Source: a virus. Taken from it: a stretch of DNA of 64,000 bases. The notes under the pieces were generated by a model that saw only the letters and a program-made list of their open reading frames with translations, did no database searches and was not told where the DNA came from. Location: positions 24,998-88,997 of IMG/VR virus record IMGVR_UViG_3300020185_000025; one strand, 5' to 3'. This document shows, piece by piece, positions 10,023-57,465 of the stretch (position 1 is its first letter; every line of letters starts with the position of its first letter). The position numbers and the translations under genes were made by a program.

Positions 10023-10099
10023 GCGCTCATAGCTCAACTGGATAGAGCAACAGCCTTCTAAGCTGTAGGTTCCAGGTTCAAGTCCTGGTGGGCGTGCCA
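10023..10099 (+). tRNA. tRNA-Arg(TCT)
   Basis: GCGCTCA/TGGGCGT acceptor stem, anticodon arm ACAGC-CT TCT AA-GCTGT, GTTCAAGTCC, encoded CCA. Confidence 0.95.
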
Positions 10100-10123
10100 A
10101 TTAAAATAGGAATAAATATTGCT

Positions 10124-10309
10124 ATGAAAAAGAAAGAAAGAATAAAATTAAAAGGTGGAGCAGAATGGGATGCTCTAACACCTGCACGCAAATGGTATAA
10201 GTATTTAACAAGTCCTGGTGTTACCGCAAGTATTAAGAAAGGCTATAATAAAAGGTTTAGGAAAAATGGAAAAATTGACACTGAGAAATCCAGTCGCGAA
10301 GAACTGTAA
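10124..10309 (+). CDS. small basic hypothetical protein
   Basis: ATG downstream of the tRNA; Lys/Arg-rich. Confidence 0.6.
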   Translation: MKKKERIKLKGGAEWDALTPARKWYKYLTSPGVTASIKKGYNKRFRKNGKIDTEKSSREEL

Positions 10310-10400
10310 TAAGTTCAATAAACCTGCGACACACAAAGATCGTAAGAAAGCGGCAAGCCGTGGTTACACTAAACACAAACTCCAAAAGATTAAGGAATGA
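10266..10400 (+). CDS. small basic protein (NPVAK..KDRKK..GY.KHK)
   Basis: AGGA RBS; coupled to next ORF. Confidence 0.6.
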   Translation: MEKLTLRNPVAKNCNKFNKPATHKDRKKAASRGYTKHKLQKIKE

Positions 10401-10636
10401 CAATGGATGCTACAGAATTTTTTAAGTTGTTAGAAAGCCATGATTGGTACTATCAATATTCCGACGACCATCGAGCATGGGAAAAAGGTAATAAAGAATC
10501 GAAGCGACTTCAGTCAATTATACAAGAAGATTCATTATATACTAATATGTATTTGGCAATGTCAGATTACATGTTTAAGCCGTTAGAAGAAAGAGAAGGT
10601 TTGGAAAGACCACAACTGAAGGATTTTATTAATTAA
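10397..10636 (+). CDS. hypothetical protein
   Basis: L..HDWYYQYSDDHRAW..G motif. Confidence 0.7.
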   Translation: MTMDATEFFKLLESHDWYYQYSDDHRAWEKGNKESKRLQSIIQEDSLYTNMYLAMSDYMFKPLEEREGLERPQLKDFIN

Positions 10637-10643
10637 GAATAAC

Positions 10644-11033
10644 ATGGTTTCAACAAAAGAAATAAAGCAAGACGTTAAAGAAAAGTTCGAAGATAGCACA
10701 ATGACTCGAACTGGTCGACTTGCTATGGAATTAGCTGCTGAACGTTCACGTCTTAGACAAGAGATGGAAGAACTTCAAGTACAAGTAGAAGATCTATCTC
10801 CTGTCACACCAGAAGGTACTGTTGATAGTTATGTTAAATGGGCAGCAACCATTCTTGCAGTTTTTGGAGTATTTACTCAGAGTGCAGGATTTATTATTGT
10901 AGGTAAGATTGCTTATGCTTGTAGTTCTATTGCTTGGACTTATGTTGGACATTGTTGGAATGATAAAGCAATTATGATCGGTAGTGCAATTACAGGTACT
11001 GCTGTTCTATTAAATTTAACGGAATATTTATGA
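10644..11033 (+). CDS. membrane protein, 3 TM (PnuC/SemiSWEET-like fold possible)
   Basis: DSYVKWAAT..W.YVG..WNDKAI; paralog of 11923-12216. Confidence 0.65.
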   Translation: MVSTKEIKQDVKEKFEDSTMTRTGRLAMELAAERSRLRQEMEELQVQVEDLSPVTPEGTVDSYVKWAATILAVFGVFTQSAGFIIVGKIAYACSSIAWTYVGHCWNDKAIMIGSAITGTAVLLNLTEYL

Positions 11034-11743
11034 GTGAAGTATTTGTATTTGATGTAGACGGAACATTGACCGAACCAAGATTGAGGATAGATGAACAGTT
11101 TTTCAACTATATGTTGAACTTCTGTAAAGATAACGATGTATACCTCATTACTGGATCCGATCGTCAAAAGACCTTTGAACAATTAGGCTTTGAGTTATAC
11201 GATGCTTGTAAAGGAGTATGGCAATGCAACGGTAACGAATTCTGGGAAGGATCTCGAAGAGGTGAAAAGAAAGACTTTACAATGGATTACGAATTCAAAA
11301 AGTTCCTAACAAATTACGTTAACTCTAGTAGGTACCCAATTAAAACTGGTAGCCATCTCGAAGAAAGAACTGGTATGATTAACTTTTCTACTGTAGGCCG
11401 CGGTGCTACATTACAACAAAGAAAAGATTATTATGCATGGGATAAAGTTAACCACGAACGTATATTACTTTGTGAAGAAATCAATAAAGAATATCCAAAG
11501 CTTATGGCTTCCGTTGGTGGAGAAATTAGTATTGATATTGCGATAAGAGGAAATAACAAATCGCAGGTCGCAGATATCCTAAATAAAAAATACGATCACA
11601 TTCACTTCTTTGGAGATAGAATGGATTATGGAGGCAACGATTATCCGTTAGCCACAACAATAGAACTAGGACAGATGGGAACAAATTATCCTGTTAGTTC
11701 ATGGAAAGAAACCTGGGAGAAACTAAATGAAATTAAGAATTAG
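11030..11743 (+). CDS. HAD-IIB phosphomannomutase (eukaryotic PMM-type)
   Basis: FDVDGTLT, ITGSD, EERTGMINFS..GR, GGEISIDI, FFGD...GGNDY. Confidence 0.85.
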   Translation: MSEVFVFDVDGTLTEPRLRIDEQFFNYMLNFCKDNDVYLITGSDRQKTFEQLGFELYDACKGVWQCNGNEFWEGSRRGEKKDFTMDYEFKKFLTNYVNSSRYPIKTGSHLEERTGMINFSTVGRGATLQQRKDYYAWDKVNHERILLCEEINKEYPKLMASVGGEISIDIAIRGNNKSQVADILNKKYDHIHFFGDRMDYGGNDYPLATTIELGQMGTNYPVSSWKETWEKLNEIKN

Positions 11744-11921
11744 ATATACGCATGAAACAGATGCATCAAGAGAATTAGAAGTTGTAGGTTGGCAATACGC
11801 AAGACCTAGTGGTGAACTTAGTGAAGAACACGACGAAACGCGAACTTACATTCGTAGGATAGACGATTATATTATCGACTTTCCAACAGCAAACATTATT
11901 GAGACAATTGAAATAGGATAG
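11727..11921 (+). CDS. hypothetical protein
   Basis: Overlapping-coupled ORF with GGAG RBS. Confidence 0.6.
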   Translation: MKLRIRYTHETDASRELEVVGWQYARPSGELSEEHDETRTYIRRIDDYIIDFPTANIIETIEIG

Positions 11922-11922
11922 T

Positions 11923-12216
11923 ATGATACGTAGTGATAGAGGTGAAAGGAAACTAGATTGGTATGTCAAATGGTTGGCATCAATGTTGGTTATGACAGCA
12001 ATATGCGCAAGAGCGGCAGGTCCTGAGTGGAGAGATATAGATTTAATCGCAGGAACTTGTGGTATTGCTTTATGGTTATGGGTATCATTACTTTGGGAAG
12101 ATAGAGCACTTATATTATTAAATGGTGTTTCTTTCTTTGTACTTTGTGTTGGAATATTAAAAGAATTTGGACCACTCATGCAAAAGTTTCAATTAATTGC
12201 ATGGTTGGTAGGATAA
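11923..12216 (+). CDS. membrane protein, 3 TM
   Basis: DWYVKWLAS..W.WVS..WEDRALI; paralog of 10644-11033. Confidence 0.65.
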   Translation: MIRSDRGERKLDWYVKWLASMLVMTAICARAAGPEWRDIDLIAGTCGIALWLWVSLLWEDRALILLNGVSFFVLCVGILKEFGPLMQKFQLIAWLVG

Positions 12217-12226
12217 GTTTACGCGC

Positions 12227-12303
12227 GCGTTTGTAGCTCAGATGGATAGAGCATTGGTCTACGAAACCAAGGGTCAGGAGTTCGAATCTCTTCAAGCGCG
12301 CCA
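12227..12303 (+). tRNA. tRNA-Arg(ACG)
   Basis: GCGTTTG/CAAGCGC acceptor stem, TTGGT-CT ACG AA-ACCAA, GTTCGAATC, CCA. Confidence 0.95.
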
Positions 12304-12305
12304 AT

Positions 12306-12381
12306 GCTCCCTTAGCTCAGCAGGCAGAGCAGCTGATTTGTAATCAGCAGGTCGTTGGTTCGATTCCGACAGGGAGCTCCA
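12306..12381 (+). tRNA. tRNA-Thr(TGT)
   Basis: GCTCCCT/AGGGAGC acceptor stem, GCTGA-TT TGT AA-TCAGC, GTTCGATTCC, CCA. Confidence 0.95.
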
Positions 12382-55373: not shown

Positions 55374-55856
55374 ATGTATGAATATAGAACAAATTTATTA
55401 AAAGTCGTTGATGGTGATACAGTAGATGTAGACATCGATTTAGGCTTTGGAATCTGGTTAAGAAACGAAAGAGTTCGTATCATGGGTATTGATACACCAG
55501 AAAGTAGAACAAGAAACAAAGTAGAAAAGTTATTTGGTAAAGCTGCAGGCAAACGTTTAAAAGAACTGTTAGGTAAATCACCAGTCTTGAAAACTCAAGT
55601 TGCTAGAGATGGTGAAGATATGAAAGGCAAGTTCGGTCGTATCCTTGGAGACTTTGATGTATATTGCCCAACAACAGATTCATGGAGACCAGTAACAGAA
55701 GTCATGTCTTCAGAAGGTCATTGTGTACCTTACACAGGTGGATCTAAAGAAGATACTCTTTCTGCTCATTTAGTCAATAGACAAAAGTTATTAGAGTCAG
55801 GATATGTTGATAGAAAGGCATATGACAAATTAATGGCAACAGGCAAGTATAGTTGA
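55374..55856 (+). CDS. SNase/thermonuclease-like protein
   Basis: KVVDGDT, R..GIDTPE, KFGRIL. Confidence 0.85.
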   Translation: MYEYRTNLLKVVDGDTVDVDIDLGFGIWLRNERVRIMGIDTPESRTRNKVEKLFGKAAGKRLKELLGKSPVLKTQVARDGEDMKGKFGRILGDFDVYCPTTDSWRPVTEVMSSEGHCVPYTGGSKEDTLSAHLVNRQKLLESGYVDRKAYDKLMATGKYS

Positions 55857-55881
55857 CATACATTCAGTTCTCAATTATAAT
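55853..55881 (+). promoter_or_regulatory. sigma70-type promoter
   Basis: TTGACA-N17-TATAAT. Confidence 0.7.
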
Positions 55882-55967
55882 GCTATTTCTTATACCTGTA
55901 GCAACCTGGTATGCTGCCGTATGGTTGACCGACTATTTTGACGGTAAAAAATAAATGAAAATAACTA

Positions 55968-55996
55968 TTGACATTTAGTACAAACTAAGTTATAAT
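55968..55996 (+). promoter_or_regulatory. sigma70-type promoter, leaderless start of rpsU
   Basis: TTGACA-N17-TATAAT; ATG 6 nt after -10. Confidence 0.85.
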
Positions 55997-56002
55997 ATAC
56001 AA

Positions 56003-56296
56003 ATGAATAATAAATTAAGTAATAACGGGGGATTGTCAGTTGACCTTACTCCGAGGAAAAGACATCCTAAAGATAAAAGACCACCATCAGCGATGCCGTT
56101 TGATATTGGTTTGAGAAAGTTTAAGAAGAATGTTGAAAAGGCAGGAATCTTAAAAGAATTGAGAGCTAGAGAATATTACGAAAAGCCTACGGCAAAACGT
56201 AAAAGAAAAAAGGCTGAAGCAATTAAAAGACATCAAAAGAAGATTCAATCTGAAATGAGAGCTTTTAATGGTAGAGGTCAAAGGCACTATAAATAA
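56003..56296 (+). CDS. rpsU: 30S ribosomal protein bS21 with N-terminal extension
   Basis: [39 protein letters not shown]. Confidence 0.92.
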
Positions 56297-56338
56297 ATTC
56301 ATAAAACTATTGACATTAGGTAAATAGTTTGTTATAAT
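56288..56338 (+). promoter_or_regulatory. late plus sigma70 promoters for ncRNA
   Basis: TATAAATA 56288-95; TTGACA 56310 -N17- TATAAT 56333-38. Confidence 0.85.
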
Positions 56339-56344
56339 TGTTTT

Positions 56345-56528
56345 GTTCAGTGGATAAACCATGACGGCGAGATGGAATCGCGGAGTTAATAGCTCTACCA
56401 TTTAAGACCCACGACGGCTACTGAGTCCGGGAGCAACTTTTGAACTACCAACGGACTTACCGAGTGACTATGGTTGCGAGGTAGGACAACTGAGTAGGAA
56501 TCTGACGCCAAAGGACCGACCACTGAAC
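56345..56528 (+). ncRNA. 184-nt structured non-coding RNA (family unassigned)
   Basis: GC-richer ORF-free island; GTTCAGTGG (predicted +1) pairs with CCACTGAAC, then TC-T7; inner stems TGAGTCCG/CGGACTTA, CTACC/GGTAG, GGCG/CGCC. Confidence 0.8.
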
Positions 56529-56553
56529 TCTTTTTTTGAATGAGATTTATATT

Positions 56554-56967
56554 ATGGCATTGGCAAGAGGTCTAACAACGATTTCCACTCGGAAACGTAA
56601 AGTCAAAATAACTAAAGCTAAGATGGCTCAATACGAGCTTGATTGGCGTATGCATAATAAAAACATGAAGCGCAAAGGTTTACATGATTTGCGTTATGAT
56701 ACATTAGATGAATATATAAACTATTGTCTAGGCAAGGTTAAACCGAAGTCTGAGTTTAAACCATATACACCAACAGAATCATTTCGTAGAGAAGTACCAG
56801 AATATCCTTCTTATCATTCTACAAAAGGTTCAGGTCATGGAACTAAGAAAGAAGTACCGGTCTATACAGGAACATTAGTTAAAGGTATTGCTACGATGCA
56901 TAAATCAAATGCAGTACCTATTATTAATCAGGAACAAGCAACAGAAATATCGAGGATGGCAAGATGA
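56554..56967 (+). CDS. hypothetical basic protein
   Basis: YTGTLVKGIATMHKSNAVP motif. Confidence 0.75.
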   Translation: MALARGLTTISTRKRKVKITKAKMAQYELDWRMHNKNMKRKGLHDLRYDTLDEYINYCLGKVKPKSEFKPYTPTESFRREVPEYPSYHSTKGSGHGTKKEVPVYTGTLVKGIATMHKSNAVPIINQEQATEISRMAR

Positions 56968-57167
56968 CACTATATTGTGATTACACGTTTGAAATTAACG
57001 AAAGCGGACTAAAGTTAACTAACAAAGCAGAACCTGATGAGTTTCATCAAGTTCAAATAAAGAACACTCCACTTAATGTTGGAGATACATTCACTTTAGA
57101 GTTGGACGAAGACAACTGCATGTTCTTTAAAAAGAGCGGACCGGTCCAACTAAATCTGGAAATCTAA
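56964..57167 (+). CDS. hypothetical protein
   Basis: ATGA-coupled. Confidence 0.65.
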   Translation: MTLYCDYTFEINESGLKLTNKAEPDEFHQVQIKNTPLNVGDTFTLELDEDNCMFFKKSGPVQLNLEI

Positions 57168-57433
57168 TGGCAACCAAGAACGACATAACAGGCGATTCAC
57201 TAACAAGTAAAGCGTCAACTAAACAATACGATGATGGTTGGGATCGTATCTTTGGAAAGAAAAAAGCAAAGAAAGCTCATGAGGAAGAATTTAACTCAGA
57301 GTTTGCTCATCCAGTGTATACGAGATATCCTCATCTTAAAGACGATTTCAAAGCAAAGCAACAAGATCTGACTGAGTTGAATGGTGACGGTAATCGAGAA
57401 CGTGGTCGATACGGCGAAGATTTATCTGAATAA
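57167..57433 (+). CDS. hypothetical protein
   Basis: MATKNDITGD..Y.DGWDRIFGK. Confidence 0.7.
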   Translation: MATKNDITGDSLTSKASTKQYDDGWDRIFGKKKAKKAHEEEFNSEFAHPVYTRYPHLKDDFKAKQQDLTELNGDGNRERGRYGEDLSE

Positions 57434-57436
57434 CTA

Positions 57437-57465
57437 TTGACATTCATTATGAATTAGTTTATAAT
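57437..57465 (+). promoter_or_regulatory. sigma70-type promoter for ligase
   Basis: TTGACA-N17-TATAAT. Confidence 0.85.

What the first reader, a model, noticed from the sequence alone, without database searches (positions are those of the whole stretch)
56345..56528. Unannotated 184-nt structured RNA beside bS21, a candidate 6S-like sigma70 decoy
Seen: a consensus TTGACA-N17-TATAAT places +1 on G56345, the first base of a 9-bp closing helix (GTTCAGTGG/CCACTGAAC) followed by a U-tract. A late TATAAATA lies just upstream at 56288. The interior is GC-richer than its flanks and can be hand-folded into a rod with large internal loops: GGCG/CGCC, AGAT/ATCT, AGTT/AACT, CTACC/GGTAG, ACC/GGT, CAC/GTG, CGG/CCG, TGAGTCCG/CGGACTTA. 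Alternative pairings (AACCATG/TATGGTT, AGATGG/CCATTT) allow a branched or pseudoknotted fold. Established: E. coli 6S RNA is a rod of about 184 nt that binds sigma70-RNAP. Inference: a phage with about 21 consensus sigma70 promoters and a gp33/TATAAATA late programme could use such an RNA to titrate sigma70 holoenzyme at the early-to-late switch. I see no primary-sequence match to 6S, tmRNA, RNase P or a self-cleaving ribozyme core, so it may be a new family.
Basis: partly seen in the sequence, partly recalled or inferred. Interest (0 to 1): 0.8.

Follow-up and report, generated by a model that had tools for sequence, protein, structure and literature searches.

The report
New folded RNA in ocean phages

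Summary
The 184-nt element at 56345-56528 (+) is a real structured RNA. It starts about 7 nt after a perfect TTGACA-N17-TGnTATAAT promoter. It ends in a 9-bp closing helix followed by T7.

I found 36-40 distinct relatives of 123-190 nt, only in IMG/VR viral contigs. A covariation-derived fold of 36 pairs is 96.2% paired, and 22 pairs change on both sides. Slid controls give 24-46%.

The fold is a three-way junction, not a rod. Closing helix P1 carries two irregular arms with invariant internal loops and two optional hairpins.

Rfam 15 gives nothing: no 6S, tmRNA, riboswitch or ribozyme. A pattern scan of 185,579 species genomes found no cellular copy.

The order S21-RNA-orf137 holds in 27 of 32 representative loci. 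The RNA also occurs elsewhere and is missing from many S21 phages.

Best reading: a stand-alone, early, trans-acting RNA that binds a specific partner. The 6S idea is not supported, and function is untested.

This scan met the same family before on other DNA (e1-5800231, e1-5725311).

The parts
56310..56338 (+). Sigma70-type promoter: TTGACA, 17-nt spacer ending in TG, TATAAT. The predicted +1 is at or next to G56345.
   Evidence: 12 of 12 matches, TG present. (one of 21 perfect sites, 0.05 expected); 26 of 36 family members have TTGAC-N16-19-TAnAAT upstream. In 24 of these the -10 ends 6-9 nt before the modelled P1.
56345..56528 (+). The structured RNA, 184 nt (long form with both optional hairpins).
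   Evidence: It is single copy in its own record and in 5 of 5 other records searched.
56345..56353 (+). P1 5' strand. Pairs with 56520-56528.
   Evidence: helix 1: 9 pairs, 7 with changes on both sides, 99.7% of cells paired. P1 of 8-14 bp in 33 of 36 extended sequences and an interrupted one in one more; none found in the two rows of the split-domain clade.
56359..56360 (+). P2 5' strand (CC). Pairs with GG at 56416-56417 and closes arm A.
   Evidence: helix 2: CG 33, GC 2, UA 2 at the outer pair. The L004/L005 variant replaces CC/GG by UCU/AGA.
56361..56369 (+). Arm A internal loop, 5' side (invariant). With 56404-56415 it forms a loop with near two-fold symmetry: the same 9-nt word CCAYGACGG stands on both strands (56359-67 and 56409-17).
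   Evidence: invariant columns. G366-C410 and G367-C409 are invariant G-C. The Y positions 56362 and 56412 swap in the L010 type. The symmetric pairing is my inference.
56370..56403 (+). P3 hairpin. In this window it is the long form, with an invariant insertion. In short forms it is a 3-5-bp stem, GNRA-capped in most (a 3-bp stem with an AAUU or AAAU loop in the L164 group).
   Evidence: helices 4 and 5 (3 of 5 and 2 of 4 pairs change on both sides); long form in 17 of 34 rows. Short forms carry GCAA, GUAA or GAAA loops, except the L164 group.
56404..56417 (+). Arm A internal loop, 3' side (ARGACCCACGAC), and P2 3' strand (GG).
56422..56428 (+). P4 5' strand (UG, bulged A, GUCC). Pairs with 56513-56518 and closes arm B.
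   Evidence: helix 6: 4 of 6 pairs change on both sides. The four core pairs show GC/UA/CG/AU exchanges. At 56422-56518 the counts are UG 20, CG 7, UA 1 and C-A 8.
56429..56444 (+). Arm B internal loop, 5' side (GGGAGCAAC, four variable bases, GAA). It includes a short GC/GC helix with 56507-56508.
   Evidence: at 56434-56507 the counts are CG 28, GC 1, UA 2 and G-A 5. helix 7.
56445..56450 (+). P5 5' strand. Pairs with 56491-56497, with A56493 bulged.
   Evidence: helices 8 and 9 (4 of 4 core pairs change on both sides). RNAalifold finds this helix on its own.
56451..56490 (+). P6, an optional hairpin. It is absent from short forms, which have a short loop instead. Most long forms are capped by GAAA or GUAA; here the loop is UAUG.
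   Evidence: a 35-nt version in 12 of 34 rows, a different shorter one in 2, and none in 20.
56491..56519 (+). 3' strands of P5 and P4, the arm B internal loop 3' side (GAA, variable bases, ACGCC, AAA) and the one-base joint to P1.
56520..56528 (+). P1 3' strand.
   Evidence: helix 1.
56531..56537 (+). Run of seven T, two bases after P1. [quoted passage not shown]
   Evidence: 25 of 36 members have 6 or more T among the 12 bases after the modelled P1. The simple terminator scan does not call it, because its rule needs a 3-8-nt loop.
56003..56296 (+). Phage ribosomal protein bS21 gene, the usual upstream neighbour.
   Evidence: Pfam Ribosomal_S21, E 2.5e-17. PHROG 21469. Synteny in 27 of 32 loci.
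56554..56967 (+). orf137, a basic protein of unknown function and the usual downstream neighbour. In this window it has no promoter of its own.
   Evidence: No Pfam match. PHROG 27048, unknown function. Alignment A3. AF2 mean pLDDT 66.9. No PDB relative. The next promoter-like site is at 57437.

Best explanation
This is a self-contained small RNA gene of a clade of uncultured marine T4-like myophages, of the pelagiphage / Kyanoviridae kind. Host sigma70 RNA polymerase starts transcription at the first base of closing helix P1. The transcript ends at the U-run just after P1's last base, giving a closed-ended RNA of about 185-190 nt (123-136 nt in short forms).

It folds into a three-way junction. 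P1 carries two irregular arms, and each arm is built around an internal loop that hardly varies across the family. Optional hairpins (GNRA-capped in many members, not in this window) extend the arms.

Inferred: the two conserved loops form a specific binding surface, and the RNA acts in trans early in infection by binding a conserved partner. That partner is most likely a protein of the translation apparatus, because the RNA so often travels with the phage bS21 gene. As a side effect, the P1/U-run leaks transcription into orf137 and the two small genes behind it.

Shown: the gene signals, the fold and the conservation. Not shown: the transcript itself, any partner, and any effect.
For: Gene signals:
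- A perfect promoter ends 6 nt before P1.
- 26 of 36 members have such a promoter, and in 24 the -10 ends 6-9 nt before the modelled P1.
- 25 of 36 have a T-rich tail right after P1.

Fold:
- On the MAFFT alignment, 28 pairs are 96.1% paired, 16 pairs change on both sides, and 0 of 500 shuffles reach this. Slid controls give 29-47%.
- On the model alignment, 36 pairs are 96.2% paired and 22 change on both sides.
- G-U pairs (for example 29 at one P3 pair) would be A-C on the other strand, so the + strand is the RNA.

Not coding:
- There is no + strand ORF.
- Length variants differ by about 20 and 35 nt.

Selection:
- RNA nucleotide identity (0.82-0.97) exceeds that of both flanking genes in 9 of 10 comparisons.

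Autonomy:
- The RNA is single copy.
- It is found with its own promoter in two other gene contexts.
- It follows S21 without a promoter in 10 of 36 members. In 8 of those, a separate promoter stands between the RNA and orf137. This does not fit a leader that controls orf137.
- In one clade each arm has its own closing helix, so the arms are modules.

Link to bS21:
- 27 of 32 loci have S21 directly upstream.
- There is a precedent for bS21 binding a structured ncRNA. I read the abstract and section 6 of PMC12054373, and passages of 10.1101/2024.12.08.627333.
Against: - No transcript is shown. Only assembled contigs of RNA libraries were available, at depths of 2-5.
- No partner is known.
- The bS21 link is not strict. 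47 more distant S21 loci lack the RNA. L020 and L022 join S21 directly to orf137. Four loci in two contexts have the RNA without S21 nearby. A 107.8-kb record with the RNA shows no S21, though it is only 50% complete.
- Very high conservation of internal loops is also what riboswitch aptamers and ribozymes show.
- In this window the orf137 operon has no other promoter, so a leader role cannot be dismissed here.
- I found no sequence mimicry of E. coli 16S, 23S or 5S rRNA beyond shuffled controls.
Confidence: 0.5

Rival explanations
1. It is a cis-acting leader: a riboswitch-like or protein-dependent attenuator. The folded core decides whether P1 forms. P1 plus the U-run then stops transcription before orf137 and the two genes behind it.
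For: The order is promoter, then RNA from +1, then P1 and T7, then the orf137 start 17 nt on, with no other promoter before 57437. Invariant loops with variable, optional outer hairpins look like an aptamer. A 201-nt contig of an RNA library spans 56406-56605, across the U-run into orf137, at depth 2.8. This is compatible with read-through, but DNA carry-over is not excluded.
Against: In 8 of 36 members a consensus promoter lies between the RNA and orf137, and the RNA has none of its own. The downstream gene differs in other contexts: a 69-aa membrane protein and a 447-aa protein. I saw no conserved alternative pairing for either P1 strand. L020 and L022 express orf137 behind S21 without the RNA. 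No known riboswitch class matches.
Confidence: 0.2
2. It is a processing or stability element of the S21 message. That could be a self-cleaving ribozyme built from two docking internal loops, or a compact fold that protects or defines an mRNA end.
For: 10 of 36 members have no promoter and begin within about 20 nt of the S21 stop, so those RNAs must be cut out or act as a 3' UTR. The two arms with invariant loops, held side by side, recall ribozymes that dock two loops (my own knowledge, not a test).
Against: No ribozyme family matches. 26 of 36 members have their own promoter exactly at P1, which a processing element does not need. The RNA also occurs away from S21.
Confidence: 0.1
3. It is a 6S-like decoy that binds sigma70 holoenzyme and helps the early-to-late switch.
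For: The length in this window, 184 nt, equals that recalled for E. coli 6S. It is an early, strong sigma70 promoter in a phage with 21 perfect sigma70 promoters. Binding was not tested, so it is not excluded.
Against: The fold is a three-way junction with two arms and no long rod with a central bubble. Other members are 123-136 nt. One clade splits the arms into two separate hairpin domains. No 6S model scores at E up to 10 on four members.
Confidence: 0.04
4. It is not an RNA at all, but a small protein gene or a DNA-level site.
For: The minus strand has a 42-aa ORF at 56395-56523 and folds almost as well.
Against: Compensatory changes occur in 22 of 36 pairs. Insertions and deletions of about 20 and 35 nt are not multiples of three and cut through that ORF. 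G-U pairs fit the + strand only. Promoter and T-run are oriented for the + strand.
Confidence: 0.02

Closest known systems
6S RNA (Rfam RF00013 and related 6S families)
   Same: A small, abundant-type RNA with paired 5' and 3' ends. The length in this window is similar. Expression is sigma70-driven.
   Different: There is no rod and no central bubble. It is a three-way junction with two arms. There is no model match. Most members are much shorter.
Phage T4 small stable RNAs rnaC and rnaD (species 1 and 2 RNAs, annotated in AF158101)
   Same: Small stable RNA genes of a T4-type phage with no known function, lying among translation-related genes.
   Different: They are not homologous: the best score of my model on that T4 region is 4.3 bits, E 0.25, with filters off. 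The T4 RNAs sit in the tRNA cluster and, as I recall, are processed with the tRNAs. This RNA usually has its own promoter and T-run.
OLE RNA with bS21 (PMC12054373, abstract and section 6 read; 10.1101/2024.12.08.627333, passages read)
   Same: A structured non-coding RNA functionally tied to ribosomal protein bS21. This gives a precedent for bS21 binding, or being sequestered by, an RNA other than 16S rRNA.
   Different: OLE is about 600 nt, cellular (Bacillota) and has its own partner proteins. There is no sequence or model match here. The helix here whose 3' strand reads AGUAGG (as the SD-like strand of OLE's bS21 site is written in section 6 of that paper) covaries freely, so it is not a fixed SD/anti-SD mimic. 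Binding was not tested.
Orphan structured RNA motifs of marine T4-like phages
   Same: Conserved, covarying intergenic RNAs of uncultured marine myophages with unknown function.
   Different: They are different families. Neither reaches gathering score in the window, nor E 10 on the element.
Riboswitch aptamers with an intrinsic terminator
   Same: Invariant junction and loop bases, variable outer hairpins, a promoter-proximal position, and a U-run before the next gene.
   Different: No known class matches. There is no alternative (anti-terminator) pairing. The downstream genes are unrelated, and in 8 of 36 members a promoter stands between the RNA and the gene.

Membership tests
6S RNA | Match to a 6S covariance model | tested here: not met
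   No 6S family is listed at gathering score in the window. None is listed at E up to 10 on this member or on three others.
6S RNA | A long, mostly double-stranded rod: closing stem, large central bubble, terminal stem | tested here: not met
   The covariation-backed fold is a three-way junction with two arms. The arms are closed separately in the L151/L196 clade.
6S RNA | Binds sigma70 holoenzyme and templates product RNA | not testable with these tools
   This needs a gel shift and a transcription assay.
tmRNA (one- or two-piece) | tRNA-like domain and tag reading frame, as detected by ARAGORN or the Rfam tmRNA models | tested here: not met
   ARAGORN finds only three tRNAs, at 10023-12381. 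There are no tmRNA hits.
Any Rfam 15 riboswitch or self-cleaving ribozyme class | Covariance-model match | tested here: not met
   The best matches are unrelated single hits at E 0.2-8.8, and no family recurs among the four members.
T4 rnaC / rnaD stable RNAs | Homology to the annotated T4 RNAs | tested here: not met
   Model R1 on AF158101 70.7-71.4 kb with filters off gives a best score of 4.3 bits.
rRNA mimic (16S, 23S GTPase centre, 5S) | Sequence likeness to rRNA beyond chance | tested here: not met
   Local alignment to the E. coli rrnH RNAs: 16S scores 18 against 19.9 +/- 2.1 in shuffles, 23S scores 20 against 20.9 +/- 2.1, and 5S scores 19 against 14.8 +/- 1.8 (shuffle maximum 20). The 5S match lies in the optional hairpin. 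Structural mimicry was not tested.
bS21-binding ncRNA (as OLE) | Direct binding of bS21 | not testable with these tools
   Only gene adjacency is shown, in 27 of 32 loci.
New family (this report) | P1, the two arms with their invariant loop words, and a match to model R1 | tested here: met
   162 bits, E 5e-48 for this member. It was part of the seed alignment, so the match is by construction. Independent members L004, L005, L214, L211, L210, L212 and L208 score 88-176 bits.

The most novel reading that the evidence does not exclude
The RNA is a phage-made decoy for the host's own bS21 or another loosely bound translation factor. Made at once from a consensus early promoter, it would soak up the host protein so that the phage-encoded bS21 next door takes its place on ribosomes and biases them toward phage messages. 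It would be an RNA partner to a viral ribosomal protein, parallel to the proposed sequestering of bS21 by OLE RNA. A second reading is also not excluded: a free-standing aptamer that sponges a small signalling molecule.
Probability: 0.1. Interest if true: 0.85.

Novelty: new member of a known kind. Interest (0 to 1): 0.6.

Why it matters
Phages of the most abundant ocean bacteria carry their own ribosomal protein bS21, and nobody knows how it is used. A strongly conserved, intricately folded RNA travels with that gene in one clade. It is more conserved than the genes on either side, and it gives a concrete handle on that question.

It also adds a well-supported family to the short list of structured phage RNAs without a function. 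Its features point to specific recognition, and perhaps to a dimeric partner:
- two modular arms;
- a nearly two-fold symmetric invariant loop;
- optional hairpins, GNRA-capped in many members.

The RNA is small enough (about 125 nt in short forms) for probing, pull-downs and structure work.

Tried and rejected
**Known families**
- Rfam at gathering score on the whole window gave only three tRNAs.
- Rfam at E up to 10 on this member and three others gave no recurring family.
- Rfam on 12 loci from the first pattern scan was wasted. Those loci turned out to be chance pattern matches in high-GC DNA.

**Thermodynamic folding**
- Single-sequence MFE folds of six members disagree with each other.
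- RNAalifold on a flank-containing alignment failed.
- On A2, RNAalifold recovers only P1 and P5.
- The model therefore rests on covariation.

**Pseudoknots**
- GGCG/CGCC (56366-69 with 56506-09) breaks without compensation in 8 of 36 sequences.
- CCC/GGG (56408-10 with 56429-31) and UUU/AAA are nearly invariant or break, so they are untestable or unsupported.
- I could not confirm the pseudoknots named in earlier notes of this scan.

**Cellular homologues**
- The pattern scan of genome contigs gave 56 stretches. All lie in coding or high-GC DNA, and the best nhmmer E-value is 0.0098.
- Only exact pattern matches can be found this way, so diverged cellular copies could be missed.
- The metagenome-contig scan was not used.

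**Cultured phages**
- blastn (distant mode) of the element against 50,697 phage records hit 6 records. Five match only its promoter stretch; the sixth (H6, Aeromonas phage AerS_266) matches 27 nt inside the element at 56378-56404, E 0.2. No record holds the RNA.
- orf137 has only remote relatives there, such as Melnitz at 39.5% identity, without an RNA slot.

**Expression**
- The runs found are kept only as assembled contigs. Laid on 55400-57400, depths are 0-5 around the element.
- In run X2 no contig covers 56271-56404.
- This says nothing about a start, an end, the strand or the level, so expression is neither shown nor refuted.

**Mimicry and antisense targets**
- There is no rRNA likeness beyond shuffles.
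- There is no excess of 10-mers in the window shared with, or complementary to, the RNA: 17, against 20.9 +/- 7.1 for shuffles.

**orf137**
- No Pfam match.
- PHROG of unknown function.
- No Atlas lead.
- No PDB relative; the best is E 0.014 to an unrelated helical protein.
- AF2 mean pLDDT 66.9, too low to search folds. No fold search was run.

**Other ideas**
- T4 rnaC/rnaD homology is rejected.
- The late TATAAATA box codes Tyr-Lys-stop of S21 and is kept only in close relatives. I give it no role.
- A recalled word-level likeness to glycine-riboswitch and SRP RNA motifs was considered and dropped, because no model supports it.

**Literature**
- Two searches ran: 124 papers with 3 or more of 4 terms, 15 listed; 96 papers, 12 listed.
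- No listed title or abstract describes this RNA.
- I read passages of PMC7029224 and 10.1101/2021.08.24.457595 (find mode), the abstract and section 6 of PMC12054373, and passages of 10.1101/2024.12.08.627333.
- Supplements are closed and may hold motif lists that I could not see.
Full report
**Setting**

The window is part of an 88,997-base IMG/VR virus record, estimated 42% complete. Around the finding, all on the + strand, lie:
- a serine hydroxymethyltransferase-like ORF;
- NifU/IscU and a staphylococcal-nuclease homologue;
- a 97-aa ribosomal protein bS21 at 56003-56296 (Pfam E 2.5e-17);
- a gap from 56297 to 56553;
- a 137-aa basic ORF at 56554-56967 with no Pfam family;
- two small ORFs and an ATP-dependent DNA ligase.

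The element 56345-56528 fills most of the gap. No + strand ORF of 25 aa or more lies in it.

**The observation**

The promoter is as described. TTGACA-N17-TATAAT lies at 56310-56338 with TG before the -10. It is one of 21 perfect sites in the window, where shuffles give 0.05.

G56345 lies 7 nt past the -10 and opens GTTCAGTGG. This pairs with CCACTGAAC at 56520-56528 and is followed by TC and seven T.

The interior is GC-richer: 0.45-0.46 in 180-nt windows against 0.31-0.39 beside it.

Folding energy is only mildly unusual, at z -2.72 with 1 of 200 shuffles as good. The opposite strand gives z -2.27. Energy is therefore not the argument.

TATAAATA at 56288 is there, but it is the Tyr-Lys-stop end of the S21 gene.

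**Relatives**

- An exact 31-mer finds one more viral contig, 99% identical across the gap.
- I fetched loci through the two neighbouring proteins: 46 loci for orf137 and 80 of 136 for S21. nhmmer with the element then hit 58 of 128 loci, giving 26 distinct sequences.
- A pattern scan of viral contigs and a second nhmmer round raised this to 40 distinct sequences. The rest of the 87 pattern stretches were chance matches in high-GC DNA.
- The same kind of pattern in one genome each of 185,579 bacterial and archaeal species gave 56 stretches, all chance. I found the family only in viral contigs.
- It is single copy in its own record and in 5 of 5 other records.
- No GenBank phage in the collection holds it.

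**Structure**

Members range from 123 to about 190 nt, because two hairpins are optional.

P1 is found as an uninterrupted 8-14-bp helix in 33 of 36 extended sequences and as an interrupted one in one more. It takes at least ten different sequences, such as GAGACGGTGG/CCACTGTCTC and AATTGGTGG/CCACCAATT.

An all-against-all scan for covarying columns and reading the alignment gave these further helices:
- P2: CC/GG, 56359-60 with 56416-17.
- P3: 56370-75 with 56398-403.
- P4: GUCC/GGAC, 56425-28 with 56513-16.
- P5: CUAC/GUAG, 56445-48 with 56494-97.

On the structure-blind MAFFT alignment A2 (34 sequences), 28 pairs are 96.1% paired and 16 change on both sides. None of 500 shuffles reaches this. 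Sliding the partners by 1-3 columns gives 29-47% paired and 2-4 such pairs.

With a covariance model (R1) and its alignment of 37 distinct rows, a refined set of 36 pairs is 96.2% paired, with 22 changing on both sides. That alignment leans toward the model, so the A2 figures are the conservative ones.

RNAalifold alone recovers P1 and P5 with two extra pairs.

*Overall shape.* The fold is a three-way junction. P1 carries arm A (P2, internal loop, P3) and arm B (P4, long internal loop, P5, optional P6).

*Arm A.* Both strands read the same 9-nt word, CCAYGACGG (56359-67 and 56409-17). The loop therefore has near two-fold symmetry. The two Y positions swap U and C in the L010 type. In the L004/L005 variant both sides are replaced together and CC/GG becomes UCU/AGA. 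This argues that the two sides touch.

*Arm B.* P4 and P5 each continue by two pairs past a bulged A. At 56422-56518 the counts are U-G 20, C-G 7, U-A 1 and C-A 8. C56434-G56507 shows C-G 28, G-C 1, U-A 2 and G-A 5.

*Outer hairpins.* Short P3 forms are capped by GCAA, GUAA or GAAA, except in the L164 group. Most P6 forms are capped by GAAA or GUAA.

*Modularity.* In the L151/L196 clade there is no common P1. Each arm has its own closing helix, so the arms are modules.

Only P1 and the 'alternative' AGATGG/CCATTT survive.
- TGAGTCCG/CGGACTTA and CTACC/GGTAG need the optional hairpin. They also compete with covarying partners.
- GGCG/CGCC breaks uncompensated in 8 of 36 sequences.
- The molecule is not a rod.

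**Is it an RNA gene?**

- Compensatory changes, G-U pairs that fit only the + strand, and indels of about 20 and 35 nt all speak for RNA and against the 42-aa minus-strand ORF.
- Nucleotide identity to this member is 0.82-0.97 for the RNA. It is 0.76-0.84 for S21 and 0.73-0.78 for orf137. The RNA is the best kept of the three in 9 of 10 comparisons.
- 26 of 36 members have a TTGAC-N16-19-TAnAAT promoter. In 24 of them the -10 ends 6-9 nt before the modelled P1.
- 25 of 36 have 6 or more T in the 12 bases after P1.
- A start at the first base of the closing helix and an end just after its last base is the layout of a stable small RNA.

**Context**

S21 directly upstream and orf137 directly downstream occur together in 27 of 32 representative loci. 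One more locus is cut by a contig end, and four (two contexts) have neither gene.

In those two contexts the RNA has its own promoter:
- In one it sits between an epimerase gene and a 69-aa membrane protein. That protein has a weak NMN-transporter hit, E 0.049, below cut-off.
- In the other it sits between a MazG-like gene and a 447-aa ORF.

Ten of 36 members lack a promoter and start within about 20 nt of the S21 stop. In eight of these a consensus promoter stands between the RNA and orf137.

The RNA is absent in several places:
- 47 more distant S21 loci lack it.
- L020 and L022 lack it, and there S21 runs straight into orf137.
- In L028 the slot holds a remnant and a tRNA-Thr gene.

So the RNA is an autonomous module. 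It favours the S21 neighbourhood but depends on neither neighbour.

**What it is not**

- Rfam 15 lists nothing at gathering score but three tRNAs. At E up to 10 it gives only unrelated single hits on four members.
- ARAGORN finds no tmRNA.
- The T4 stable RNAs rnaC and rnaD do not match R1; the best score is 4.3 bits.
- There is no likeness to E. coli rRNAs beyond shuffles.
- There is no excess complementarity to the window.

**Expression**

RNA libraries that hold parts of 55400-57400 exist in several studies, but only as assembled contigs. At depths of 2-5 they show nothing about ends or level. One 201-nt contig spans 56406-56605 across the T-run. Expression remains untested.

**Mechanism**

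The best-supported reading is a trans-acting, early, closed-ended small RNA. Its two invariant loops make a specific binding surface.
- *Shown:* gene signals, fold, selection, autonomy and modularity.
- *Inferred:* that it binds a partner, and that the partner belongs to translation. This second point rests only on the neighbourhood and on the published case of bS21 binding OLE RNA (PMC12054373, abstract and section 6; 10.1101/2024.12.08.627333, passages).

The symmetric loop of arm A would suit a dimeric protein. That is my inference.

The leader or riboswitch reading keeps some weight, because in this window the orf137 operon has no other promoter. The members with a promoter behind the RNA, the varied downstream genes and the lack of any alternative pairing speak against it.

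A ribozyme or mRNA-end element is possible for the promoter-less members.

The 6S idea fails both membership tests I could run. It is left with only its untested biochemical claim.

**Novelty**

Two literature searches listed nothing that describes this RNA. The pelagimyophage paper PMC7029224 (passages read) reports S21 as a core gene and found no riboswitches with a scanner. Supplements were closed.

Earlier notes of this scan describe look-alikes on other DNA. One is a 128-nt RNA after phage rpsU (e1-5800231). Another is a promoter-driven RNA of about 136 nt judged not 6S-like (e1-5725311). Their sizes match my short forms, and both share words with this sequence. I take them to be the same family and reach the same main verdict from my own tests.

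It is a new family within a known kind: an orphan structured phage RNA.

Noticed in passing
window 55968-56005: The S21 gene's ATG (56003) lies 7 nt after the -10 of a perfect promoter (55968-55996). The S21 message would therefore be leaderless or nearly so, as another first-reader note says (e1-6132143).
   Followed up: partly
L028:1-192: In one relative, the slot before orf137 holds a remnant of the variant P3 arm, a T-run and then a complete tRNA gene (anticodon TGT by eye). The slot appears to be a swap site for small RNA genes.
   Followed up: partly
L020:2600-3010 and L022: In some relatives the RNA is missing altogether. The S21 stop is followed within about 20 nt by the orf137 start.
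   Followed up: partly
L151:8900-9130 and L196: In this divergent clade each arm of the RNA has its own closing helix and there is no common P1. It has its own consensus promoter. It sits between a MazG-like gene and a 447-aa ORF without a Pfam match, in a 107.8-kb record where no S21 was found.
   Followed up: partly
L159:204-413 (-) and L182: Here the RNA precedes a 69-aa membrane protein with a weak, sub-threshold likeness to the N-terminus of nicotinamide-mononucleotide transporters (E 0.049).
   Followed up: partly
window 56554-56967 and alignment A3: orf137 has an invariant C-terminal block (GIATMHKSNAVP) and a basic N-terminus. Its C-terminal half recurs in cultured phages of Delftia, Acidovorax, Methylophilales and Synechococcus. 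Function is unknown.
   Followed up: partly
window 56538-56556 and relatives: The stretch just before the orf137 start (TTTATATTATGG) is kept in nearly all relatives and has no Shine-Dalgarno-like purine run. In members with a promoter behind the RNA, a near-copy of it appears twice.
   Followed up: no
window, whole: There are 21 perfect TTGACA-N17-TATAAT sites, many with T after TTGACA and TG or TGT before the -10. This is an unusually uniform early-promoter set.
   Followed up: partly
window 56382-56396: The inner hairpin of long-form P3 is identical in all 17 long-form members. It shares a 9-mer with the E. coli 23S rRNA 1094-1102 region. By my own rough estimate (not computed in any call) a few 9-mer matches of this kind are expected by chance, and the overall alignment is not above shuffles.
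   Followed up: partly
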